Of a DNA stretch of 64,000 nucleotides, positions 889 through 7,892 are shown one piece after another. Below the pieces are notes generated by a model. That model was not told the origin of the DNA and searched no databases. It saw only the letters and a program-made list of their open reading frames with translations. The stretch's first letter is position 1; each line of letters opens with the position of its first letter. This DNA is from Candidatus Nealsonbacteria bacterium (lineage in GTDB: Bacteria > Patescibacteriota > Minisyncoccia > Minisyncoccales > MHMH01): the NCBI GenBank assembly GCA_016188865.1, contig JACPGX010000005.1, positions 179,317-243,316 on the forward strand. The letters are read 5' to 3'. Position numbers and translations under genes: made by a program.

Positions 889-1574
889 AAAATTTCGAAC
901 TTTTAGAAAAAAAATTCAAGATTAAGTTTAAAAATAAGGGATTATTGACTCAAGCTTTCACCCACAGGTCTTATCTGAATGAGAATCCGAAGTTTGCGTA
1001 TTTCCACAATGAGAGATTGGAGTTTCTCGGCGATGCTGTTATAGAGCTTGCCGTAACAGAATATCTTTTTAAAGAATATCCCAAAAAACCAGAAGGAGAG
1101 CTGACGTCGTGGCGCGCGGCCTTAGTTAATGCTAAAATTCTTTCTAGAATCGCCCAAGATTTAGAATTTAATGATTTCCTTTTATTAAGCAGAGGCGAAG
1201 CTAAAGAAACAGGAAAAGCCCGCCAGTTTATTTTAGCCAATACTTTTGAGGCGTTTGTGGGCAGTTTATATCTTGATCAGGGCTATTCAGTTTGTCAGAA
1301 ATTTATTAAAAAGTATGTGATAAGTGAGTTGCCATCGATTATTGAGAGTCAGGTATATAAAGATGCAAAATCGCGTTTTCAGGAAGAAGCCCAGGAAAAA
1401 GTCGGCATTACCCCAACTTACAAAGTTTTAAAAGAGTGGGGGCCCGATCACGCCAGACATTTTACTATCGGTGTTTTTTTGGGACAAGAGCTGGTGGCAG
1501 ACGGAGAAGGTTCTTCCAAGCAAGAAGCAGAAGAAGATGCGGCAAAAAGAGCCCTTGAAATAAAAAAGTGGTAG
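885..1574 (+). CDS. rnc: Ribonuclease III
   Basis: 229 aa. RNase III signature [11 protein letters not shown] plus a C-terminal dsRBD ([18 protein letters not shown]). ATGA overlap with nusB. Confidence 0.95.
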
Positions 1575-1596
1575 GTGTATAATATTCTATATTATT

Positions 1597-2013
1597 ATGT
1601 TGATAATAAGATTTTTTAGAGTAGGCAAAAAAAATCAGCCGTCTTTTAAGATAGTTGTCACGGATAAAAGAAGACCGCCCAGAGCCGGCCGTTTTACGGA
1701 GCAGGTTGGTTTTTATAATCCAGTAACCAAAGAGAGGAATTTAAATAAAGAAAGAATACAATACTGGGTGTCCAAAGGAGCTCAGCCGTCTCTCACGGCT
1801 TATAACCTATTCGTAAAAGAAGGGATTTTACAAGGCAAAAAAATCGCTGTCCATAAAAAGTCAAAAAAGCCGACAGAGGCCCCTGCTTCTGCTGTTTCTG
1901 TCGCAGCCGTCGCTCCTGCAACTCCAGCGGCGACTTCTCCAGCCGAACAACCAGCCGCCGCAGCATCAACCGCTCCAATTACTGAAACTCCAAAAGAAGG
2001 GCCCGTAGCTTAG
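1597..2013 (+). CDS. rpsP: 30S ribosomal protein S16 with Ala/Pro-rich C-terminal tail
   Basis: MLIIRFFRVGKKNQPSFKIVVTD...GFYNP is bS16, followed by a ~55-aa low-complexity A/P/T tail. Stop TAG 2011-2013 lies inside the D-arm of the downstream tRNA-like gene. Confidence 0.9.
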   Translation: MLIIRFFRVGKKNQPSFKIVVTDKRRPPRAGRFTEQVGFYNPVTKERNLNKERIQYWVSKGAQPSLTAYNLFVKEGILQGKKIAVHKKSKKPTEAPASAVSVAAVAPATPAATSPAEQPAAAASTAPITETPKEGPVA

Positions 2014-2033
2014 CTGGTAGAGCGCTTCATTTG

Positions 2034-2168
2034 TTCCGATTCCGACTTCGGTCGGAATCGAGAATCCTCGATAATTTTGGTGGGCCAATAGCTCAGCGGC
2101 AGAGCACCTCATTTGCAATGAGGGGGTCGTGGGTTCGAATCCCGCTTGGTCCACCAAAAATATCGGGA
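2034..2168 (+). other. 135-nt insertion/intron-like segment inside the outer tRNA anticodon loop; carries a complete tRNA-Ala
   Basis: Termini TTCCGAT...ATCGGGA are inverted and extend the anticodon stem (with the native TG/CA this makes a 9-bp helix, 2032-2040 with 2162-2170). Interior has a 10-bp hairpin with a TTCG loop (2037-2060), an alternative ATCGAG/CTCGAT hairpin (2057-2072), and a tRNA whose acceptor helix is extended by GGT/ACC (2079-2081 with 2153-2155). Confidence 0.55.
2082..2156 (+). tRNA. tRNA-Ala (anticodon TGC), CCA encoded
   Basis: GGGCCAA TA GCTC AGCGGCA GAGC A CCTCA TTTGCAA TGAGG GGGTC GTGGG TTCGAAT CCCGC TTGGTCC A CCA. Canonical cloverleaf with G3:U70 and A73 alanine identity elements. 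Confidence 0.9.
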
Positions 2169-2218
2169 CAATGAAGAGGTCAGCGGTCCGAATCCGCTCG
2201 GGTCCATCAGAATTCAGA

Positions 2219-2248
2219 ATACACCGGTTCAACCGGTGTATTTTTTTT
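2219..2248 (+). terminator. Rho-independent terminator after the tRNA locus
   Basis: ATACACCGG TTCAA CCGGTGTAT followed by T8. Confidence 0.85.
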
Positions 2249-2264
2249 GAAAACAATAAACGAT

Positions 2265-2287
2265 TGTTAGACGTCGGACGTCTAACA
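2265..2287. repeat. Perfect 23-nt palindrome TGTTAGACGTC-G-GACGTCTAACA
   Basis: 11-nt arms are exact reverse complements. The same TGTTAGAC...GTCTAACA arms recur at 25540-25564. Confidence 0.8.
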
Positions 2288-2349
2288 GTTCCCGACAAGA
2301 TAAGGGAAAGAAAATCAAAAATTTTAGCTACTCCGAAAATTTTTGGATG

Positions 2350-2370
2350 TTGCACCACCTGGTGGTGCAA
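2350..2370. repeat. Perfect 21-nt palindrome TTGCACCACC-T-GGTGGTGCAA
   Basis: 10-nt arms are exact reverse complements. A third hairpin, TAATGGG(AGTCCGACA)CCCATTA, follows at 2386-2408. Confidence 0.75.
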
Positions 2371-2465
2371 CAGATATCAGCCGCGTAATGGGAGTCCGAC
2401 ACCCATTAATACTTAGCTACCTAAACGAATTTGCCGCCGAAAGTAAAATCTGATATATTTTAATT

Positions 2466-3416
2466 ATGGTTAAAAAAGTAATTGCGAAAAATTTGCCGAA
2501 AGATGTTTTTTTGCATCTTTTGAATATCCTGACTTTTTATTTAAGCATTGTTAGTTTTATTAATCTTTATATCCAATATATAAGCGCTCTTTTTCCGGAC
2601 CAGCTTAGTTTTTATTATGCGGGAACAGCTAATGCCGTCAGAACGTTTACTTCTATACTCATAATAGCTTTCCCCGCATATTTATTGACTTCGTGGCTAT
2701 TAGGAAAAGACCTTAAAGAAAATCCGGCAAAGCGCGAATTCAGATTAAGGAAATGGCTTGTTTATTTTACTCTTTTTATATCGGCAATAACCATTATTGT
2801 CGACCTTATTATTTTCGTTAACCGTTTCTTGGGGGGAGAGCTGACCCCGCCTTTTCTCTCGAAAGTTTTAGTCGTGCTGCTGGTGGGCTTAGCGGTTTTC
2901 GGATACCACATTTGGGACTCTAAAAGAAAGGACGCTGAAAAATCAAGAACTCCCAAAAAACTTTCTTTTGCAGCTTCTTTCATTGTTTTAGCAAGCATTG
3001 CCGCGGGTTTTTTCATAATGGGAACTCCTGCGGAACAAAGAAGAATAAAATTTGACGAGCAAAGGATAAGCCATCTCCAAATATTGCAGAGCCAGATTAT
3101 AAATTACTGGGTCATGAAAGAATCCCTTCCCCAAGAATTGAATGGCTTGGAAGATAGCATTTCCGGGTTTATTGCGCCCAAGGATCCCGAGTCGAATATA
3201 GCGTATGAGTACAATATTATTGGCAATCTTTCATTTGAGCTATGCGCCGCATTTAAAACTTTAAGCAGGGGCAGGGGAGCGGCATACTATAATCCCCGCG
3301 ATTCATTTCAGCAAAATTGGGAGCACGAAGCCGAAAGAACCTGCTTTAAAAGAATAATTGACCCGGAATTGTATAAAAATACTAGCCAGCCCAAAGAAAT
3401 CGTTCCGCTGCGATAA
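2466..3416 (+). CDS. Hypothetical integral membrane protein (several N-terminal TM helices, soluble C-terminal domain)
   Basis: 316-aa ORF with hydrophobic segments (LNILTFYLSIVSFINLYI, ILIIAFPAYLLTSWLL, LFISAITIIVDLIIFV, VLVVLLVGLAVFGY, FIVLASIAAGFFIMG). No family recognised with certainty. Confidence 0.6.
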   Translation: MVKKVIAKNLPKDVFLHLLNILTFYLSIVSFINLYIQYISALFPDQLSFYYAGTANAVRTFTSILIIAFPAYLLTSWLLGKDLKENPAKREFRLRKWLVYFTLFISAITIIVDLIIFVNRFLGGELTPPFLSKVLVVLLVGLAVFGYHIWDSKRKDAEKSRTPKKLSFAASFIVLASIAAGFFIMGTPAEQRRIKFDEQRISHLQILQSQIINYWVMKESLPQELNGLEDSISGFIAPKDPESNIAYEYNIIGNLSFELCAAFKTLSRGRGAAYYNPRDSFQQNWEHEAERTCFKRIIDPELYKNTSQPKEIVPLR

Positions 3417-3474
3417 AGAGGTGCTTGCAGGGTACAGTCTTGTACCCTGTGGATAACTGCCTAATTCTGGGGGC

Positions 3475-3502
3475 TTGACGACATTGTTTGGCGGATTAAA
3501 AT
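3475..3502 (+). promoter_or_regulatory. Sigma70-type promoter for the downstream structured RNA
   Basis: TTGACG (3475-3480), 16-nt spacer, TAAAAT (3497-3502). Confidence 0.5.
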
Positions 3503-3509
3503 AATACTT

Positions 3510-3730
3510 GGGTGCGCACAGCGCAAAGACAGAAGGGAGTGAGTGTCGAGATACGACAGAGATCTCTCATTTCATTTTTCTTCCTTGAGCATATATTCTA
3601 AGATAAGCGAAGGGTTTCCCTAAGCTTGTCAAAGAGTTAGCGATAGGATTAAATCCAAGCTTGGTGGAAAAACGAAGTGGGCTCAAATGCATAAGTATTT
3701 CACGACATTCATTTCCTTCTGTCTTTTGTA
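3510..3730 (+). ncRNA. Structured ncRNA candidate with 6S-RNA-like rod architecture (identity unproven)
   Basis: 24-bp closing helix 3525-3548 with 3703-3726 (21 Watson-Crick pairs, 3 G-U). Second helix 3566-3584 with 3663-3681. The two are separated by a 17/21-nt internal bubble. Apical AAGCTT-containing helix 3622-3628 with 3656-3662. Six non-Watson-Crick positions are G-U on the + strand versus one A-C. Own promoter and terminator; no credible ORF. Confidence 0.55.
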
Positions 3731-3734
3731 TTTT

Positions 3735-3776
3735 GAGGTCCGACCTCCCGACAAATATGACGGGAGATCGGACCTC
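3735..3776. repeat. GAGGTCCGAC-family hairpin (copy A), acting as terminator of the upstream RNA
   Basis: GAGGTCCGACCTCCCG, loop ACAAATATGA, CGGGAGATCGGACCTC, then TTTCGTTTTAGTTTTT. Confidence 0.75.
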
Positions 3777-3793
3777 TTTCGTTTTAGTTTTTG

Positions 3794-3802
3794 TGCTATA
3801 AT
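3794..3802 (+). promoter_or_regulatory. Extended -10 promoter (TGcTATAAT)
   Basis: TG at 3794-3795 and TATAAT at 3797-3802. Confidence 0.5.
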
Positions 3803-3808
3803 AAACTT

Positions 3809-3899
3809 AGCGGGGGAAAAGGCGATGCTCAAAATCCTATCGCCGCCTTATCTCTCGCTTTGCCCGCCGAAGCCTGAAAGGGTGGAGGCGAGCTTTTTT
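3809..3899 (+). ncRNA. Small RNA candidate (~90 nt) ending in a GC-rich terminator
   Basis: Hairpin GGCGAT(3821-3826)/ATCGCC(3839-3844). GC-rich terminal hairpin with GAAA tetraloop (CTCGC 3854-3858 pairs with GCGAG 3888-3892), then T6 at 3894-3899. No known class recognised. Confidence 0.4.
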
Positions 3900-3957
3900 G
3901 TGAATAAAATGTGCATAATTAAGGCAGTTTACTCATATTTTTAATAAAAATAGCAAA

Positions 3958-3985
3958 TTGACCTAACTGCTGGTTTTGCTATTCT
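3958..3985 (+). promoter_or_regulatory. Possible promoter immediately upstream of a long terminator hairpin
   Basis: TTGACC (3958-3963), 16-nt spacer, TATTCT (3980-3985). Confidence 0.35.
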
Positions 3986-3996
3986 AAAGATAGAAG

Positions 3997-4041
3997 AGCA
4001 TCGTAAAGGCGATAGGGGTATCGTCTTTGCGATGCTTTTTT
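3997..4041 (+). terminator. Strong intrinsic terminator/attenuator hairpin
   Basis: Continuous 18-bp helix (3997-4014 with 4019-4036, 2 G-U), GGGG loop, then T6. It contains the first ATG (4032) of the tracked ORF. Confidence 0.8.
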
Positions 4042-4124: not shown

Positions 4125-4343
4125 ATGAACTGGCTTTGGGTAGTTTTGCTTATTACGGCCATTATGTTTTTGAGGGGGCTTTTAAGCGACATGAATACCC
4201 AGACCAATAGATTGTCTGAAGAACGAAAGAAGTTTCAAGATGAGCTAACCGAAGAAAGAGAAAAGAGCCAAAATCTTTATCTGGAGTTTTACGCTGAATT
4301 AGACAAAAGCATTAAGAAAGCAATTGAAGCTCTCAATAAATGA
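4125..4343 (+). CDS. Small membrane-anchored coiled-coil protein (hypothetical)
   Basis: The tracked ORF starts at 4032 inside the terminator stem. The in-frame ATG at 4125 (MNWLWVVLLITAIMFL, a TM helix) is preceded by AGGAAAAAGCG. ATGA overlap with the next gene. Confidence 0.5.
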   Translation: MNWLWVVLLITAIMFLRGLLSDMNTQTNRLSEERKKFQDELTEEREKSQNLYLEFYAELDKSIKKAIEALNK

Positions 4344-5359
4344 AAAAATATACAATTATCATCGGATTGGCAATTGCCGCAGCTTTGCTTGCAGGCGCTA
4401 TTTTATGGTTGCTGCTCCGAAAGACTAAAGAAATTTCCTACACCGGCCCAATTGAGAAGATATCTTTAGGCGCAGAACTAAATATGCGGACTTCCGCGGT
4501 TTGGATAGCTGAAAACCAGGGTTATTTTAAAGAACAGGGGCTCGATGTGCAAATACAGGGGTTTGCTTCTGGGCGAACTGCCCTGATGGCAATGCTGGAA
4601 GAAGGTAATCTTAATATGGTTACAGTTACCCAAACGCCATTGATGTTCACCAGTTTTAGCAGGAATGATTATGCGATTATAGCCGGAATAACACATTCTT
4701 ACTCCAGCATTAATATTTTAGGCCGCAGAGACCGCGGGATAGAAACACCCGCGGATTTAAAAAATAAAAAGGTGGGGGTTCCCAAAGGCACAACCGCGCA
4801 TTTCTTTTTAGACATATTTTTAACTCAAAATGGTATTCCAAATTCAGATATTGAAGTGGTTGATTTTGCGATAGATAAGTTAGTCCAAGGCCTAATAGAG
4901 GGAAAAGTCGATGCGATTTCCGCTTGGGAGCCGCATATTTTTAACGCTAGAGAAGTCTTGGGCCAAAATGCCACCTTGTTGCCTAATCCCGGTTTGTTGC
5001 GAGAGGATCTTTATTTTGTTGCCAGAAATGATTTTACAAGCAGCCACCCCGATGCCTTAAAAAAGTTTTTGAAAGCAATTGATAAGGCAAACGCATTTAT
5101 AGGGGAAAACAAAGAAACAGCTATAAGCATCGTATCAGAGCGCACAAAATTCGACAGGAGGACGGTTGCTGCTATTTGGGATGCTTATACTCTTCGATTA
5201 TTTTTAGACCAGAATACTTTAATTATTTTAGATGAAGAAGCCAAATGGGCAAGGGCAAAAGGATTAATAGACGGGAAGGTAATTCCTGATTATTTTGATT
5301 ATCTTTACTTAGATGCCCTAGAGGCAGTAAAACCGGAAGCGCTGCAGGTTATTCATTAA
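4340..5359 (+). CDS. NMT1/THI5-like (SsuA/TauA-type) substrate-binding protein, N-terminally anchored
   Basis: 339 aa. N-terminal TM/signal helix, then the pattern IAENQGYFKEQGLDVQIQGFASGRTALMAMLEEGNLNM typical of ABC-type nitrate/sulfonate/bicarbonate binding proteins. Confidence 0.65.
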   Translation: MKKYTIIIGLAIAAALLAGAILWLLLRKTKEISYTGPIEKISLGAELNMRTSAVWIAENQGYFKEQGLDVQIQGFASGRTALMAMLEEGNLNMVTVTQTPLMFTSFSRNDYAIIAGITHSYSSINILGRRDRGIETPADLKNKKVGVPKGTTAHFFLDIFLTQNGIPNSDIEVVDFAIDKLVQGLIEGKVDAISAWEPHIFNAREVLGQNATLLPNPGLLREDLYFVARNDFTSSHPDALKKFLKAIDKANAFIGENKETAISIVSERTKFDRRTVAAIWDAYTLRLFLDQNTLIILDEEAKWARAKGLIDGKVIPDYFDYLYLDALEAVKPEALQVIH

Positions 5360-6665: not shown

Positions 6666-7892
6666 ATGGCGCACTCTATTAGAAAATTTCTCTTAGTCAT
6701 TTTTTTTGTTTTAATTCTTTCTCTTGTTTTTGGAATAGGATTTTATTTTGGCAAAAGTCAAATTCCTGTTACAGCTCCCGATGGCATACTCAATGAAGAT
6801 TTTGGCAAACCAGAAAGGCTTGACTTTTCGTTATTTTGGGAAGCGTGGCGCAAGCTTGAAGAAAAATATGTTGATTCTTCAGAGATTGATTATAAAAAAA
6901 TGCTCTATGGGGCCATATCCGGGCTGACTGCTTCATTAAAAGACGATTACACTTTATTTTTTCCACCGGCAGAAACAAAAATTTTCAAAGAAGATGTTTC
7001 CGGAGAGTTTCAGGGCGTAGGCATGGAAATAGGCATAAAGGATAGAGTATTAACAATTATTGCTCCGCTAGAAGGGACGCCGGCAGAAAGAGCTGGTTTG
7101 AAACCCGGAGATAAAATTATAAAAATCGACGGCAAAAATACTACCGGCATGTCTACCGAAGAAGCTGTAAAATTAATTCGAGGGCCCAAAGGCAAGGAAG
7201 TTAATTTAACGATTTTGAGAGACGGCTGGGATGAAGTAAAGGATTTTAAAATTATTAGGGATGTTATTGAAGTGCCTTCATTAAAATTGGAAATTAAAGA
7301 TGGACCCGAAATCGGATACCCCATTGCTTATATCAAACTGTATCAATTTTCCGAAGCGGCCCGTTATGCATTTAACAAAGCTAGTTTGGAGATTTTAAGG
7401 AGTCCCTCTCAAAAAATAATTTTAGATTTAAGAAATAATCCCGGAGGCTATTTAGAAGTGGCGCAAGATATTGCCGGTTGGTTTTTAAAAGAAGGCCAAA
7501 TTGTTACTATTGAAGATTTCGGAGGCAAAGAGCCGAATGAGGAATATAAGGCGGGGGGGCCGGCTGATTTATTTTCTTATCCTGTTGTGGTTTTAATAAA
7601 TAAAGGGTCGGCTTCTGCTTCAGAAATTTTAGCCGGCGCTTTGCGCGATAATCGCGGCATAAAATTAATTGGAGAAAAATCATTCGGCAAGGGTTCTGTC
7701 CAGGAATTATTAGAATTAAAAGAGGGTTCTCTGAAGGTAACTGTTGCCAGATGGCTGACCCCGAATGGTTCGGCAATTAATGGCGAAGGTTTGATTCCCG
7801 ATATTGAGGTAAAAATGACAGACGAAGATTTTGAAAAAAAGCTGGATCCGCAGCTGGATAAAGCCATTGAAGTAATAAAAGAGATAAGATAA
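6666..7892 (+). CDS. ctpA: Carboxy-terminal processing peptidase (S41 family) with PDZ domain
   Basis: 408 aa. PDZ region (GLKPGDKIIKIDG) and S41 motifs GSASASEILAGAL and GEKSFGKGSVQ. Confidence 0.85.
   Translation: MAHSIRKFLLVIFFVLILSLVFGIGFYFGKSQIPVTAPDGILNEDFGKPERLDFSLFWEAWRKLEEKYVDSSEIDYKKMLYGAISGLTASLKDDYTLFFPPAETKIFKEDVSGEFQGVGMEIGIKDRVLTIIAPLEGTPAERAGLKPGDKIIKIDGKNTTGMSTEEAVKLIRGPKGKEVNLTILRDGWDEVKDFKIIRDVIEVPSLKLEIKDGPEIGYPIAYIKLYQFSEAARYAFNKASLEILRSPSQKIILDLRNNPGGYLEVAQDIAGWFLKEGQIVTIEDFGGKEPNEEYKAGGPADLFSYPVVVLINKGSASASEILAGALRDNRGIKLIGEKSFGKGSVQELLELKEGSLKVTVARWLTPNGSAINGEGLIPDIEVKMTDEDFEKKLDPQLDKAIEVIKEIR

What the first reader, a model, noticed from the sequence alone, without database searches (positions are those of the whole stretch)
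1999..2206. A complete tRNA-Ala(UGC) nested inside the anticodon loop of a second tRNA-Ala-like gene
Seen in sequence. Positions 1999-2033 and 2169-2206 form the two halves of a cloverleaf with a 7-bp acceptor stem (G3:U70, discriminator A), a D-arm, a 5-bp anticodon stem CTTCA/TGAAG, and a T-arm. The halves are separated by 135 nt that contain an intact, canonical tRNA-Ala (2082-2156; anticodon TGC, G3:U70, A73, encoded CCA). Joining the halves at TTG|CAA recreates the loop TTTGCAA, identical to the inner tRNA loop, so the insertion sits at the dyad centre of the TTGCAA palindrome. The insert termini (TTCCGAT...ATCGGGA) are inverted repeats that prolong the anticodon stem into a 9-bp helix. 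The two tRNAs differ by paired, compensatory stem changes (CTTCA/TGAAG vs CCTCA/TGAGG; AGCGG/CCGCT vs GTGGG/CCCGC; GGGCCCG/CGGGTCC vs GGGCCAA/TTGGTCC), so the outer copy is not a recent duplicate. Inference: one possibility is an intron-like arrangement in which RNase P/Z release of the inner tRNA leaves two base-paired halves, giving a split or spliced tRNA. The other is a tiny self-complementing insertion that destroyed a tRNA-Ala gene while delivering a replacement. The outer T-loop reads TCCGAAT (C at position 55) and lacks CCA, which favours decay. I know of no bacterial precedent; group I tRNA introns are much larger and do not carry tRNAs. The junction is ambiguous by microhomology (TGT-Thr or GAC/TAC-Val joins are formally possible), but the identity elements favour Ala.
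Basis: partly seen in the sequence, partly recalled or inferred. Interest (0 to 1): 0.85.

Follow-up and report, generated by a model that had tools for sequence, protein, structure and literature searches.

The report
Mobile tRNA cassette splits tRNA-Ala gene
The resident alanine-tRNA gene of this ultra-small (Patescibacteria) bacterium has been cut in two by a 135-bp stripped-down copy of a previously undescribed mobile element that brings its own replacement alanine tRNA, so the host now probably depends on the invader's copy.

Summary
Window 1999-2033 plus 2169-2206 are the two halves of a tRNA-Ala(UGC) gene. They are separated by 135 bp that hold a complete tRNA-Ala(UGC) at 2082-2156. Three related genomes carry the uninterrupted gene at the same rpsP-adjacent locus. 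It equals the joined halves except for one T-loop base, which fixes the insertion between nucleotides 35 and 36. Both junctions recur in independent assemblies.

The insert is not unique. A metagenome scan and protein look-ups found about 20 related copies in Nealsonbacteria, Kerfeldbacteria, Yanofskybacteria and other Parcubacteria. All share one plan: exon 1, hairpin 1, hairpin 2, exon 2. Full-length copies (about 380-400 bp) hold an 82-aa GIY-YIG nuclease (UPF0213/SLX1-like) in hairpin 1 and a tRNA-Ala in hairpin 2. The window copy has no nuclease gene.

The cargo isoacceptor matches the target (UGC into UGC, CGC into CGC). Outer halves are intact, mismatched, truncated or deleted in different genomes, and nested re-invasions occur. 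No Rfam intron or ribozyme family matches.

Best reading: a selfish element that disrupts tRNA-Ala and supplies the replacement, not an intron. How it moves is unresolved. I found no description of it in the searchable literature.

The parts
1555..1583 (+). Sigma-70-like promoter upstream of rpsP (TTGAAA-17-TATAAT). It is the likely driver of an rpsP-tRNA transcript.
   Evidence: Consensus scan gives 11 of 12 matches. Function is inferred.
1597..2013 (+). rpsP (ribosomal protein S16). Its last codons (GGG CCC GTA GCT TAG) are the first 15 nt of the outer tRNA-Ala.
   Evidence: ORF list and Pfam PF00886 on the identical protein. The same ...GPVA* ending occurs in relatives with an intact tRNA.
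1999..2033 (+). Outer (resident) tRNA-Ala(UGC), 5' half, nt 1-35.
   Evidence: nhmmer places it at profile positions 1-35, E = 1.6e-7. It is identical to nt 1-35 of the intact genes in L089 and L135.
2034..2064 (+). Hairpin 1 of the insert: TTCCGATTCCGAC-TTCG-GTCGGAATCG(A)GAA. In full-length relatives this position holds the GIY-YIG ORF. Here it is a bare stem-loop.
   Evidence: MFE fold. Covariation of the basal stem across 15 copies. No nuclease homologue anywhere in the window.
2065..2081 (+). Hairpin 2, 5' strand: conserved TCC(T)CGATA plus the leader ATTTTGGT. The leader pairs with ACCA plus the trailer.
2082..2156 (+). Cargo tRNA-Ala(UGC), intact: G3:U70, A73, encoded CCA, canonical T-loop.
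   Evidence: ARAGORN. Rfam 69.8 bits. It is 93% identical to the sole rpsP-linked tRNA-Ala of L003 and 79% identical to its own outer gene.
2157..2168 (+). Hairpin 2, 3' strand: trailer AAAA plus the conserved terminus TATCGGGA.
   Evidence: The terminus plus the start of the 3' half recurs in 16 tRNA-Ala-context metagenome loci.
2169..2206 (+). Outer (resident) tRNA-Ala(UGC), 3' half, nt 36-73. It has C55 in the T-loop and no encoded CCA.
   Evidence: nhmmer places it at profile positions 36-73, E = 2.1e-7. It matches L091 exactly over the readable part, C55 included.
2220..2248 (+). Intrinsic terminator of the resident tRNA gene: palindrome TACACCGGTT/AACCGGTGTA followed by T8.
   Evidence: Read directly from the sequence. 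The consensus scan did not list it. I assume the predicted loop is too short for its rule, but I did not check that.

Best explanation
SHOWN. The tRNA-Ala(UGC) gene that overlaps the end of rpsP was interrupted exactly between nucleotides 35 and 36 by a 135-bp insert. The insert is a nuclease-less miniature of a family of small cassettes found in Patescibacteria. The family plan is exon 1, hairpin 1, hairpin 2, exon 2. Each hairpin has a conserved 7-8 bp base with a one-nucleotide bulge. Hairpin 1 encloses either a simple loop or an 82-aa GIY-YIG nuclease gene. Hairpin 2 encloses a complete tRNA-Ala of the same isoacceptor as the target.

INFERRED. The chimeric locus is transcribed from the host promoter through to the host terminator. 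The cargo tRNA sits on top of a leader/trailer helix and is released by ordinary pre-tRNA processing (RNase P and 3' trimming, possibly after RNase III cuts the long stems). It then serves as the cell's tRNA-Ala(UGC). The two outer halves are not rejoined and are dead DNA. Over time they are lost, by mutation and by recombination between the directly repeated tRNA segments, so the cargo becomes the new resident gene. It can then be invaded again.

INFERRED, LESS SECURE. Spread is initiated by the GIY-YIG nuclease of full-length copies. The nuclease would break uninterrupted tRNA-Ala genes, and repair from an occupied allele would copy the cassette in. Nuclease-less copies such as the window's would be inherited passively or mobilised in trans. 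Because the disrupted gene is essential, the host becomes dependent on the element, as in a cleave-and-rescue system.
For: Empty site. L089, L090 and L135 have an intact tRNA-Ala at the same rpsP-overlapping position. It equals the joined halves apart from one base.

Both junctions recur in independent assemblies.

Family. 19 metagenome hits to the 3' junction, 16 of them in a tRNA-Ala context. Every half-tRNA breaks at profile position 35/36.

Nuclease. Eight distinct full-length copies (L097, L100, L103, L105, L111, L125, L128, L129) carry an ORF that matches Pfam GIY-YIG at E = 3e-14 to 5e-18. All eight have a tRNA-Ala directly downstream.

Isoacceptor matching. L128 and L129 sit in tRNA-Ala(CGC) and carry tRNA-Ala(CGC).

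State of the outer genes: perfect in the window and L103; two mismatches in L097; G3:U70 lost in L104; dead in L105; no 5' half in L111, L003, L096, L101 or L108; no 3' half in L129. Cargo tRNAs always score 49-78 bits.

L003, a related genome whose S16 is 69% identical over the aligned stretch, keeps only the cargo-type tRNA. It is followed by TATCGGGA and a decayed 3' half homologous to the L085-type gene and its flank.

Nested re-invasions occur in L094 and L100.

The five tRNA-less two-hairpin copies all lie in already disrupted tRNA fragments.

No Rfam intron or ribozyme family matches.

The two-hairpin fold is the MFE structure (z = -6.0). It is supported by covariation: 98.9% of cells paired, six pairs with double changes, 0 of 500 shuffles as good.
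Against: There are no transcript data. 'Cargo functional, outer halves dead' is therefore inferred from comparative decay only. Decay of a redundant outer gene would occur even if some RNA-level rejoining existed.

The window copy has no nuclease, and none is present in the 64 kb.

The nuclease is a bare 82-aa catalytic domain. Its closest solved relatives are UPF0213 proteins and SLX1, a structure-specific endonuclease. It scores 18-20 bits against a cutoff of 56 on the group I intron endonuclease model. Sequence-specific homing is therefore unproven.

The cargo has the same anticodon loop as the target and does get re-invaded, so how it escapes its own nuclease is unexplained.

Long covarying stems that close both cargos, and that sequester the nuclease start codon, are what one expects of RNA-level elements such as introns or rRNA intervening sequences.

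tRNA-less copies sit at several different D-arm positions. Simple homing into one site does not explain this.

My sample of family members is biased. It was retrieved through the 3' junction and through the nuclease.
Confidence: 0.78

Rival explanations
1. A new kind of intron, or a split tRNA. The two-hairpin insert is removed at the RNA level. For example, RNase P/Z release the cargo tRNA, or RNase III or another nuclease cuts at the hairpin bases. The outer halves are then ligated, or work as a base-paired pair, so the locus yields two tRNA-Ala molecules.
For: The predicted RNA fold is a clean three-way junction that keeps the outer cloverleaf intact. Both cargos are closed by covarying stems, as in ORF-bearing introns. 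Position 35/36 is where Patescibacteria group I tRNA introns insert (PMC13011429). The outer halves are still perfect in the window and in L103.
Against: No Rfam intron or ribozyme family matches. The non-tRNA part is only 60 nt. The 5' exon ends in G and the insert ends in A, not the U and G usual for group I introns. The junction has no 3-nt bulges separated by a 4-bp helix.

All eight nuclease-bearing copies carry a same-isoacceptor tRNA, which an efficiently spliced intron would not need. Outer halves are mismatched, truncated or missing in L097, L104, L105, L111, L129 and L003 while the element persists. tRNA-less copies are seen only in dead fragments.
Confidence: 0.07
2. The anatomy and consequences are as in the best explanation, but the element moves by structure-directed transposition rather than homing. 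The SLX1/UPF0213-type GIY-YIG nuclease would cut at hairpin or branch structures formed by the element and by tRNA-gene stem-loops. It would then insert or excise the two-hairpin unit without a target-site duplication.
For: The nuclease is a bare catalytic domain, and SLX1, a structure-specific endonuclease, is among its closest solved relatives. Both ends are conserved bulged hairpins with covariation. tRNA-less copies occur at different D-arm positions and within an anticodon stem. In CPR rRNA genes, GIY-YIG proteins are reported only in non-intron insertions, with low sequence conservation at their insertion sites (PMC11270868).
Against: No GIY-YIG transposase of this kind is known. All cargo-bearing copies sit at exactly 35/36 in the same orientation, which descent plus homologous recombination also explains. 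Within the roughly 135 fetched loci the motif occurred only in tRNA-Ala contexts, apart from evident chance matches.
Confidence: 0.13
3. Not a mobile element. The arrangement would be a local rearrangement (tandem tRNA-Ala copies with deletions), the scar of an integrase-type island, or an assembly chimera.
For: tRNA-Ala loci here are rearrangement hot spots. L100 has a large serine recombinase gene between the cargo and the relic halves. Contigs from the Logan assemblies break inside the cargo tRNA.
Against: The break is exact at 35/36, with the halves equal to an intact orthologue. The same conserved termini and internal motif flank the cargo in many unrelated genomic contexts. The insert has no integrase and is not flanked by a direct repeat. 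Both junctions recur in several independent assemblies, and the contigs from the two sides overlap by 30 nt.
Confidence: 0.02

Closest known systems
Free-standing and intron-borne GIY-YIG homing endonuclease genes, such as phage T4 SegB in the tRNA gene cluster (PMC2330249) and I-TevI in the td intron (from my own knowledge)
   Same: A small selfish cassette that encodes a GIY-YIG nuclease. Occupied and empty alleles exist at a precise site. It is linked to tRNA genes, and nuclease-less derivatives occur.
   Different: The nuclease is an 82-aa UPF0213/SLX1-like domain with no DNA-binding domain. The cassette sits inside the tRNA and is apparently not spliced. It carries a complete replacement for the gene it disrupts. 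It has a conserved two-hairpin frame.
Group I introns at position 35/36 of Patescibacteria tRNA-Asn and tRNA-Asp (PMC13011429)
   Same: Same phylum, same unusual insertion position in the anticodon loop, and also missed by standard tRNA finders.
   Different: No group I core (Rfam negative). The non-tRNA part is only 60 nt. The splice-site nucleotides are wrong. It carries a tRNA, and its host exons decay.
GIY-YIG-encoding insertion sequences in CPR rRNA genes that are neither group I nor group II introns (PMC11270868), and RNase III-excised rRNA intervening sequences (from my own knowledge)
   Same: Non-intron insertions with GIY-YIG ORFs in structured RNA genes of the same bacteria. Most of the rRNA insertions in that study lie at the top or base of stem-loops. 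The inserts here are closed by hairpins.
   Different: Those are in rRNA, where fragmentation is tolerated. A cut anticodon loop is not tolerated, which fits the presence of a rescue tRNA here. I could not test whether the rRNA elements share the two-hairpin frame.
Integrase-driven islands and prophages that integrate into tRNA genes and carry a copy of the displaced 3' segment (from my own knowledge)
   Same: They target a tRNA gene, often at the anticodon loop, and preserve tRNA function by bringing tRNA sequence with them. They leave relic tRNA fragments.
   Different: There is no integrase and there are no att direct repeats. A whole tRNA gene is supplied rather than the missing part. The element is 135-400 bp rather than kilobases.
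Dada DNA transposons of fish that insert into tRNA genes (including tRNA-Ala) and snRNA genes (PMC8869645)
   Same: Sequence-specific insertion inside tRNA genes, with the anticodon arm and the start of the D arm as preferred regions.
   Different: Eukaryotic. They encode a transposase and make 6-7 bp target-site duplications. They rely on hundreds of redundant target copies and carry no rescue gene.
Synthetic cleave-and-rescue gene drives, and split or permuted tRNA genes of Nanoarchaeota and red algae (from my own knowledge)
   Same: Cleave-and-rescue: a nuclease against an essential gene plus a linked rescue copy. Split tRNAs: tRNA halves encoded apart.
   Different: Cleave-and-rescue is engineered and its rescue copy is recoded to resist cutting. 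Here the cargo keeps the target loop. Split tRNAs are rejoined by the archaeal splicing machinery at a bulge-helix-bulge motif, which is absent here.

Membership tests
Group I intron in a tRNA gene | Match to the group I intron covariance model (conserved P3-P9 core) | tested here: not met
   Rfam found only tRNA, at the gathering threshold on the window and at E <= 1 on four family members.
Group I intron in a tRNA gene | 5' exon ends in U (U-G pair in P1) and the intron ends in G | tested here: not met
   The exon ends in G35 and the insert ends in A (TATCGGGA) in the window and in the cargo-bearing copies whose 3' end is preserved.
Group I intron in a tRNA gene | Host exons kept functional, because the gene depends on splicing | tested here: not met
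   Outer halves are mismatched, truncated or absent in L097, L104, L105, L111, L129 and L003.
Archaeal-type intron or split tRNA | Bulge-helix-bulge motif at the exon-intron junctions | tested here: not met
   The fold gives a three-way junction with no unpaired junction nucleotides and single-nucleotide bulges inside the hairpins.
Archaeal-type intron or split tRNA | Splicing endonuclease and ligase present, and a ligated product observed | not testable with these tools
   The whole genome and RNA data are not available here.
Homing-endonuclease element | Encodes a homing-endonuclease-family protein | tested here: met
   PF01541 GIY-YIG at E = 3e-14 to 5e-18 in full-length relatives. The window copy itself has none.
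Homing-endonuclease element | Precise occupied and empty alleles of the same locus | tested here: met
   The window is occupied. L089, L090, L091 and L135 are empty at the rpsP-overlapping tRNA-Ala.
Homing-endonuclease element | The nuclease cleaves the empty allele near the insertion site | not testable with these tools
   This needs biochemistry. The protein lacks a DNA-binding domain. Its nearest solved relatives are UPF0213 and SLX1, and it scores below the cutoff on TIGR01453.
Miniature non-autonomous derivative (MITE-like) | Shares termini and internal frame with a longer protein-coding element but lacks the ORF | tested here: met
   The window, L094, L098, L100m and L104 keep TYCCGA...TCG(N)GRR|TCC(N)CGATA, and the TATCGGGA terminus wherever the 3' end is preserved. 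Hairpin 1 is reduced to a stem-loop.
Miniature non-autonomous derivative (MITE-like) | Target-site duplication | tested here: not met
   Comparison with the empty site shows an exact insertion at TTTG|CAA with no duplicated bases.
Integrase-mediated tRNA-targeting island | Integrase gene, and att direct repeats made of duplicated tRNA 3' sequence | tested here: not met
   The 135 bp contain no ORF. The 5' half is followed directly by the element, not by a restored 3' half.
IS200/IS605-type single-strand transposon | Y1 HUH transposase (TnpA) | tested here: not met
   The only ORF in the five full-length copies submitted to Pfam is GIY-YIG. Hairpin ends and the lack of a duplication are resemblances only.

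The most novel reading that the evidence does not exclude
These cassettes are a previously unrecognised class of bacterial selfish element: a natural cleave-and-rescue system. A two-hairpin unit carries an SLX1/UPF0213-type GIY-YIG nuclease and a rescue tRNA. It knocks out the host's tRNA-Ala gene at nucleotide 35/36 and makes the host depend on the cargo. It moves by a structure-directed mechanism distinct from classical homing, transposition or splicing. The result is serial replacement of tRNA-Ala genes across Patescibacteria. The same frame may underlie the non-intron GIY-YIG insertions in their rRNA genes.
Probability: 0.3. Interest if true: 0.9.

Novelty: new variant of a known kind. Interest (0 to 1): 0.8.

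Why it matters
Four points would matter if the model holds.

1. It would be a natural example of a mobile element that solves the problem of inserting into an essential single-copy gene by carrying a full replacement. Engineered cleave-and-rescue gene drives use the same logic. Here it fits in 135-400 bp.

2. It implies that tRNA-Ala genes in these reduced genomes are repeatedly replaced by horizontally moving copies. Halves pile up as molecular fossils. This affects tRNA-based phylogeny, annotation and genome-completeness estimates. Standard finders see only the inner gene and can miss nested or broken ones.

3. It gives the abundant, functionally unassigned stand-alone GIY-YIG (UPF0213/SLX1-like) proteins a concrete and testable role.

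4. It may explain the non-intron GIY-YIG insertions reported in CPR rRNA genes.

Tried and rejected
ARAGORN intron modes (-i, -i0,200, lowered thresholds) on the native region never reported the outer gene. Only in-silico joining did.

Rfam at permissive E-values on four family members gave only tRNA and sub-threshold tmRNA-like noise on the half-tRNAs.

Two viral-contig scans were run. The internal motif gave 13 loci, all chance matches with no tRNA context. The 3' junction gave none. A phage GenBank search with the insert gave only generic tRNA similarity of 79% or less. I therefore found no sign of a phage vector.

No nuclease homologue, no second copy of the hairpin and no other tRNA-Ala fragment occurs in the 64-kb window.

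I looked for the tRNA-Val(CAC) that lies 1-1.6 kb downstream of tRNA-Ala in L001-L003 and L014. It is not in the window.

It is no better than shuffled columns: 89.9% paired, with 272 of 500 shuffles as good.

Seven literature searches found no description of a tRNA nested in a tRNA or of GIY-YIG/tRNA cassettes. The terms combined tRNA intron, GIY-YIG, homing endonuclease, nested or disrupted tRNA, and CPR, Patescibacteria or Parcubacteria.

Full report
1. IS IT THERE?

ARAGORN and Rfam report one tRNA in the whole 64 kb: tRNA-Ala(tgc) at 2082-2156, 69.8 bits. Joining 1999-2033 to 2169-2206 in silico gives a 73-nt sequence that ARAGORN calls tRNA-Ala(tgc). It has a perfect cloverleaf, G3:U70 and A73. 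ARAGORN's intron options do not find the arrangement in the native sequence.

I built a tRNA-Ala profile from relatives. It hits the two halves at profile positions 1-35 and 36-73, with E = 1.6e-7 and 2.1e-7. It hits nothing else in the window.

2. WHICH ORGANISM AND WHICH LOCUS?

The upstream genes are nusB, rnc and rpsP. I read the ORF at 183-422 as rpmF from its sequence. The S16 protein is annotated Candidatus Nealsonbacteria. Its closest species-level genomes are Nealsonbacteria and other Patescibacteria.

The rpsP reading frame ends ...GPVA*. Its last five codons, GGG CCC GTA GCT TAG, are the start of the outer tRNA. Several S16 homologues end the same way. That pointed to orthologous loci.

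3. THE EMPTY SITE

Contigs carrying those S16 homologues have an uninterrupted tRNA-Ala in the same overlapping position. These are L089, L090 and L135, whose S16 is about 80% identical over the aligned part. The gene reads GGGCCCGTAGCTTAGCTGGTAGAGCGCTTCATTTGCAATGAAGAGGTCAGCGGTTCGAATCCGCTCGGGTCCACC and scores 72.5 bits. It equals the joined window halves except for T-loop position 55.

L091 has the window's TCCGAAT T-loop in an uninterrupted gene. L085 has TCCGAGT and scores 70.6 bits. C55 is therefore a lineage polymorphism, not decay.

Against the empty site, the insertion is exactly 135 bp between G35 and C36. There is no duplication, and the junction cannot be shifted. The exon ends ...TTTG and the insert ends ...GGGA. 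The insert starts TTCC and the 3' exon starts CAAT.

4. THE ASSEMBLY

Four independent Logan assemblies from different runs contain rpsP, the 5' half, the insert and the first part of the inner tRNA (L081-L084). Two contain the rest of the inner tRNA, the 3' junction, the 3' half and the downstream DUF5671 gene (L133, L134). The two sets overlap at 2100-2129. Neither junction is an assembly artefact.

The break inside the cargo tRNA suggests that this 30-mer occurs in more than one context in those samples.

5. IT IS A FAMILY

L003 is another Nealsonbacteria genome. Its rpsP stop abuts a tRNA-Ala that is 93% identical to the window's inner tRNA. That tRNA is followed by ...TATCGGGA and a decayed 3' half. 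The decayed half and its flank align to the L085-type resident gene and terminator.

It gave 19 loci, 16 of them in a tRNA-Ala context. Profile searches show that every tRNA half in these loci ends at 35 or starts at 36.

The copies fall into five groups.
- Nested like the window: L094 (a double nest), L098, L104.
- Full-length copies of 379-399 bp: L097 (= L107), L103, L105, L111, plus L100, whose 3' end is not preserved.
- Cargo plus one or more relic 3' halves, with no 5' half: L096, L101, L108, L003.
- Relic halves alone: L095, L099.
- Arrays of successive 3' halves: L096, L100, L104, L108. These are what repeated invasion would leave.

6. THE PROTEIN

Full-length copies encode 82-89 aa proteins that match Pfam GIY-YIG at E = 3e-14 to 5e-18. 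Their closest solved structures are UPF0213 proteins (1ywl, 1zg2, E about 1e-4) and the structure-specific endonuclease SLX1 (E = 0.014). They score only 18-20 bits on the group I intron endonuclease model, whose cutoff is 56. They have no room for a DNA-binding domain.

A protein search found 25 clusters, annotated as Kerfeldbacteria, Yanofskybacteria, Parcubacteria and Patescibacteria. I looked up the genomic context of four, and all four lie next to a tRNA-Ala.
- L125 is a full-length copy at GGTTTG|CATCC.
- L128 and L129 are inserted in tRNA-Ala(CGC) at ATTCG|CAT and carry a tRNA-Ala(CGC). The cargo therefore matches the target isoacceptor. L129 has lost the 3' junction and the 3' half.
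- L126 has the nuclease gene between a relic 5' fragment and an intact tRNA-Ala.

Two further homologues (P0131, P0134) have called ORFs that read through a 5' junction. This can be seen in their N-terminal residues.

The window has no homologue of the nuclease.

7. ANATOMY

All copies share TYCCGAT ... ATCG(N)GRR | TCC(N)CGATA ... TATCGGGA.

I hand-built an alignment of the four conserved segments from 15 copies. The model of two adjacent hairpins, each with a one-nucleotide bulge three pairs from its base, gives 98.9% paired cells and six pairs with changes on both sides. None of 500 shuffles does as well. That equals the shuffled mean, and 272 of 500 shuffles do as well.

Above the conserved base, hairpin 1 has a variable stem that covaries. 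Cognate strands average -11.8 kcal/mol and non-cognate strands -3.2. The stem encloses the nuclease ORF and includes its ATG.

Hairpin 2 continues as a leader/trailer helix. Either the leader pairs with the ACCA end plus the trailer, or the trailer contains a second, perfect complement of the leader plus the first acceptor bases.

The window RNA folds into exactly this shape: outer cloverleaf, hairpin 1, hairpin 2 and inner cloverleaf (-100.7 kcal/mol, z = -6.0). Single-stranded DNA gives a similar picture, with z = -8.8.

In window coordinates:
- hairpin 1: 2034-2064
- hairpin 2, 5' strand: 2065-2081
- cargo tRNA: 2082-2156
- hairpin 2, 3' strand: 2157-2168

8. INTRON OR REPLACEMENT?

Several lines argue against an intron.
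- No Rfam intron or ribozyme family matches.
- Only 60 nt of the insert are not tRNA.
- The splice-site nucleotides are wrong for group I.
- There is no bulge-helix-bulge motif.
- All eight nuclease-bearing anticodon-loop copies carry a same-isoacceptor tRNA.
- Cargo tRNAs are always intact (49-78 bits), whereas outer genes range from perfect to absent. They are perfect in the window and L103. L097 has two mismatches. L104 has lost G3:U70. L105 is dead. One half is missing in L111, L129, L003, L096, L101 and L108.
- The five tRNA-less two-hairpin copies all sit in tRNA fragments that are already disrupted (L098, L100 twice, L105, L126).

This fits an element that is not removed from the RNA and is therefore tolerated in a live tRNA gene only if it brings a substitute.

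The caveat is that a redundant outer gene would decay even if some rejoining occurred. There are no RNA data.

The one-sided configurations are what recombination between the directly repeated outer and cargo halves would produce. Repair that starts from the cargo's own tRNA homology would give the same result. Both are inferences.

Five of six cargo tRNAs are closer to cargo tRNAs elsewhere than to their own outer gene. Outer genes in turn resemble cargos elsewhere at 79-91%. This is expected if yesterday's cargo becomes today's resident.

9. HOW IT MOVES

This is not settled.

Homing by the nuclease is the conventional reading. It explains the invariant site and orientation. But the enzyme is a bare SLX1/UPF0213-like domain, and the cargo keeps the target loop and is re-invaded (L094, L100). 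tRNA-less copies also sit at different D-arm positions.

A structure-directed mechanism is therefore a live alternative. In CPR rRNA genes, GIY-YIG proteins were reported only in insertions that are neither group I nor group II introns (PMC11270868). Those may be related elements.

10. EXPRESSION IN THE WINDOW (INFERRED)

A strong promoter-like site lies before rpsP at 1555-1583. The resident terminator follows the 3' half at 2220-2248. The cargo is therefore probably co-transcribed and then cut out. That rnc is the neighbouring gene is conserved synteny, not evidence of a link.

11. COMPARISON AND NOVELTY

The closest known things are listed here.
- GIY-YIG homing endonuclease genes, including T4 SegB in a tRNA cluster (PMC2330249).
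- Group I introns at 35/36 in the same phylum (PMC13011429).
- The non-intron GIY-YIG rRNA insertions (PMC11270868).
- Integrase islands that restore the tRNA they target.
- Dada transposons in fish tRNA genes (PMC8869645).
- Synthetic cleave-and-rescue drives.

None combines a two-hairpin frame, a bare GIY-YIG domain and a complete rescue tRNA inserted at 35/36. Seven literature searches found no description of it.

I file it as a new variant of a known kind: a nuclease-associated selfish insertion with a non-autonomous miniature. It may prove to be a new class.

12. VERDICT

The replacement reading is supported and the intron reading is unlikely. The window copy is a recent, nuclease-less member of a recurrent family. 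Interest is high at 0.8. The element is unreported, small enough to test directly, and implies serial replacement of an essential tRNA gene.

Noticed in passing
window 1999-2013; also L085, L089, L135: The rpsP reading frame runs 15 nt into tRNA-Ala, and its stop codon TAG lies in the D arm. Many Nealsonbacteria S16 proteins therefore end ...GPVA* or ...GP*. This gene/tRNA overlap is conserved across relatives.
   Followed up: partly
L001 4514-4585; L091, directly after the tRNA-Ala 3' end: A different conserved two-hairpin module follows intact tRNA-Ala genes in two genomes: AACGTAyAAAAT..AGATTTTTACGTT plus GGAACGTAGAA..TTCGTACGTTCC. Its loop motif AAAATCAGAGATTTT recurs in the tRNA-less hairpin 2 loops of L098 and L105. 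It may be a second small element family.
   Followed up: no
L001 4784-5020; L104 (oriented) 4213-4437: Free-standing GIY-YIG ORFs of the same family lie next to tRNA-Ala but outside any 35/36 insertion: 270 nt downstream in L001, and between tRNA-Ile and the outer 5' half in L104.
   Followed up: no
L126 about 1395-1480; L098 (oriented) about 7085-7160; L100 (oriented) about 2270-2400; L105 about 825-905: tRNA-less two-hairpin copies of about 75-95 nt are inserted at different D-arm or anticodon-stem positions of tRNA-Ala fragments that are already broken. The insertion sites are not identical, which simple homing does not explain.
   Followed up: partly
L128 and L129: A sub-family of the cassette targets tRNA-Ala(CGC) and carries a tRNA-Ala(CGC). 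The internal palindrome is ATCGAGGATCCGCGAT in L128 and ATCGCGGATCCGCGAT in L129.
   Followed up: partly
L100, original coordinates 2162-3658 and 2-664: A 498-aa ORF sits between the cargo tRNA and the relic 3' halves. From its sequence I read it as a large serine recombinase; I ran no family search on it. A partial second copy and a possible methyltransferase ORF are nearby. A shared sequence (CTTCGGAAAAGTCAAGG) follows tRNA-Ala in L090, L100 and L103. tRNA-Ala may also be an integration site for larger islands.
   Followed up: no
window 2100-2129: All the short-read Logan contigs I retrieved from five runs end or begin within this 30-nt stretch of the cargo tRNA. This implies that the same 30-mer occurs in a second context, such as another allele or genome, in those samples.
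   Followed up: no
window about 30000: GC skew changes sign: positive over 1-30 kb and mostly negative afterwards, with cumulative skew peaking near 30 kb. This could be a replication landmark or only a switch in gene orientation.
   Followed up: no
window 3417-4032: About 600 bp downstream of the DUF5671 gene have no convincing ORF. Relatives L001-L003 and L014 have a tRNA-Val(CAC) 1-1.6 kb after tRNA-Ala, but the window has none.
   Followed up: partly
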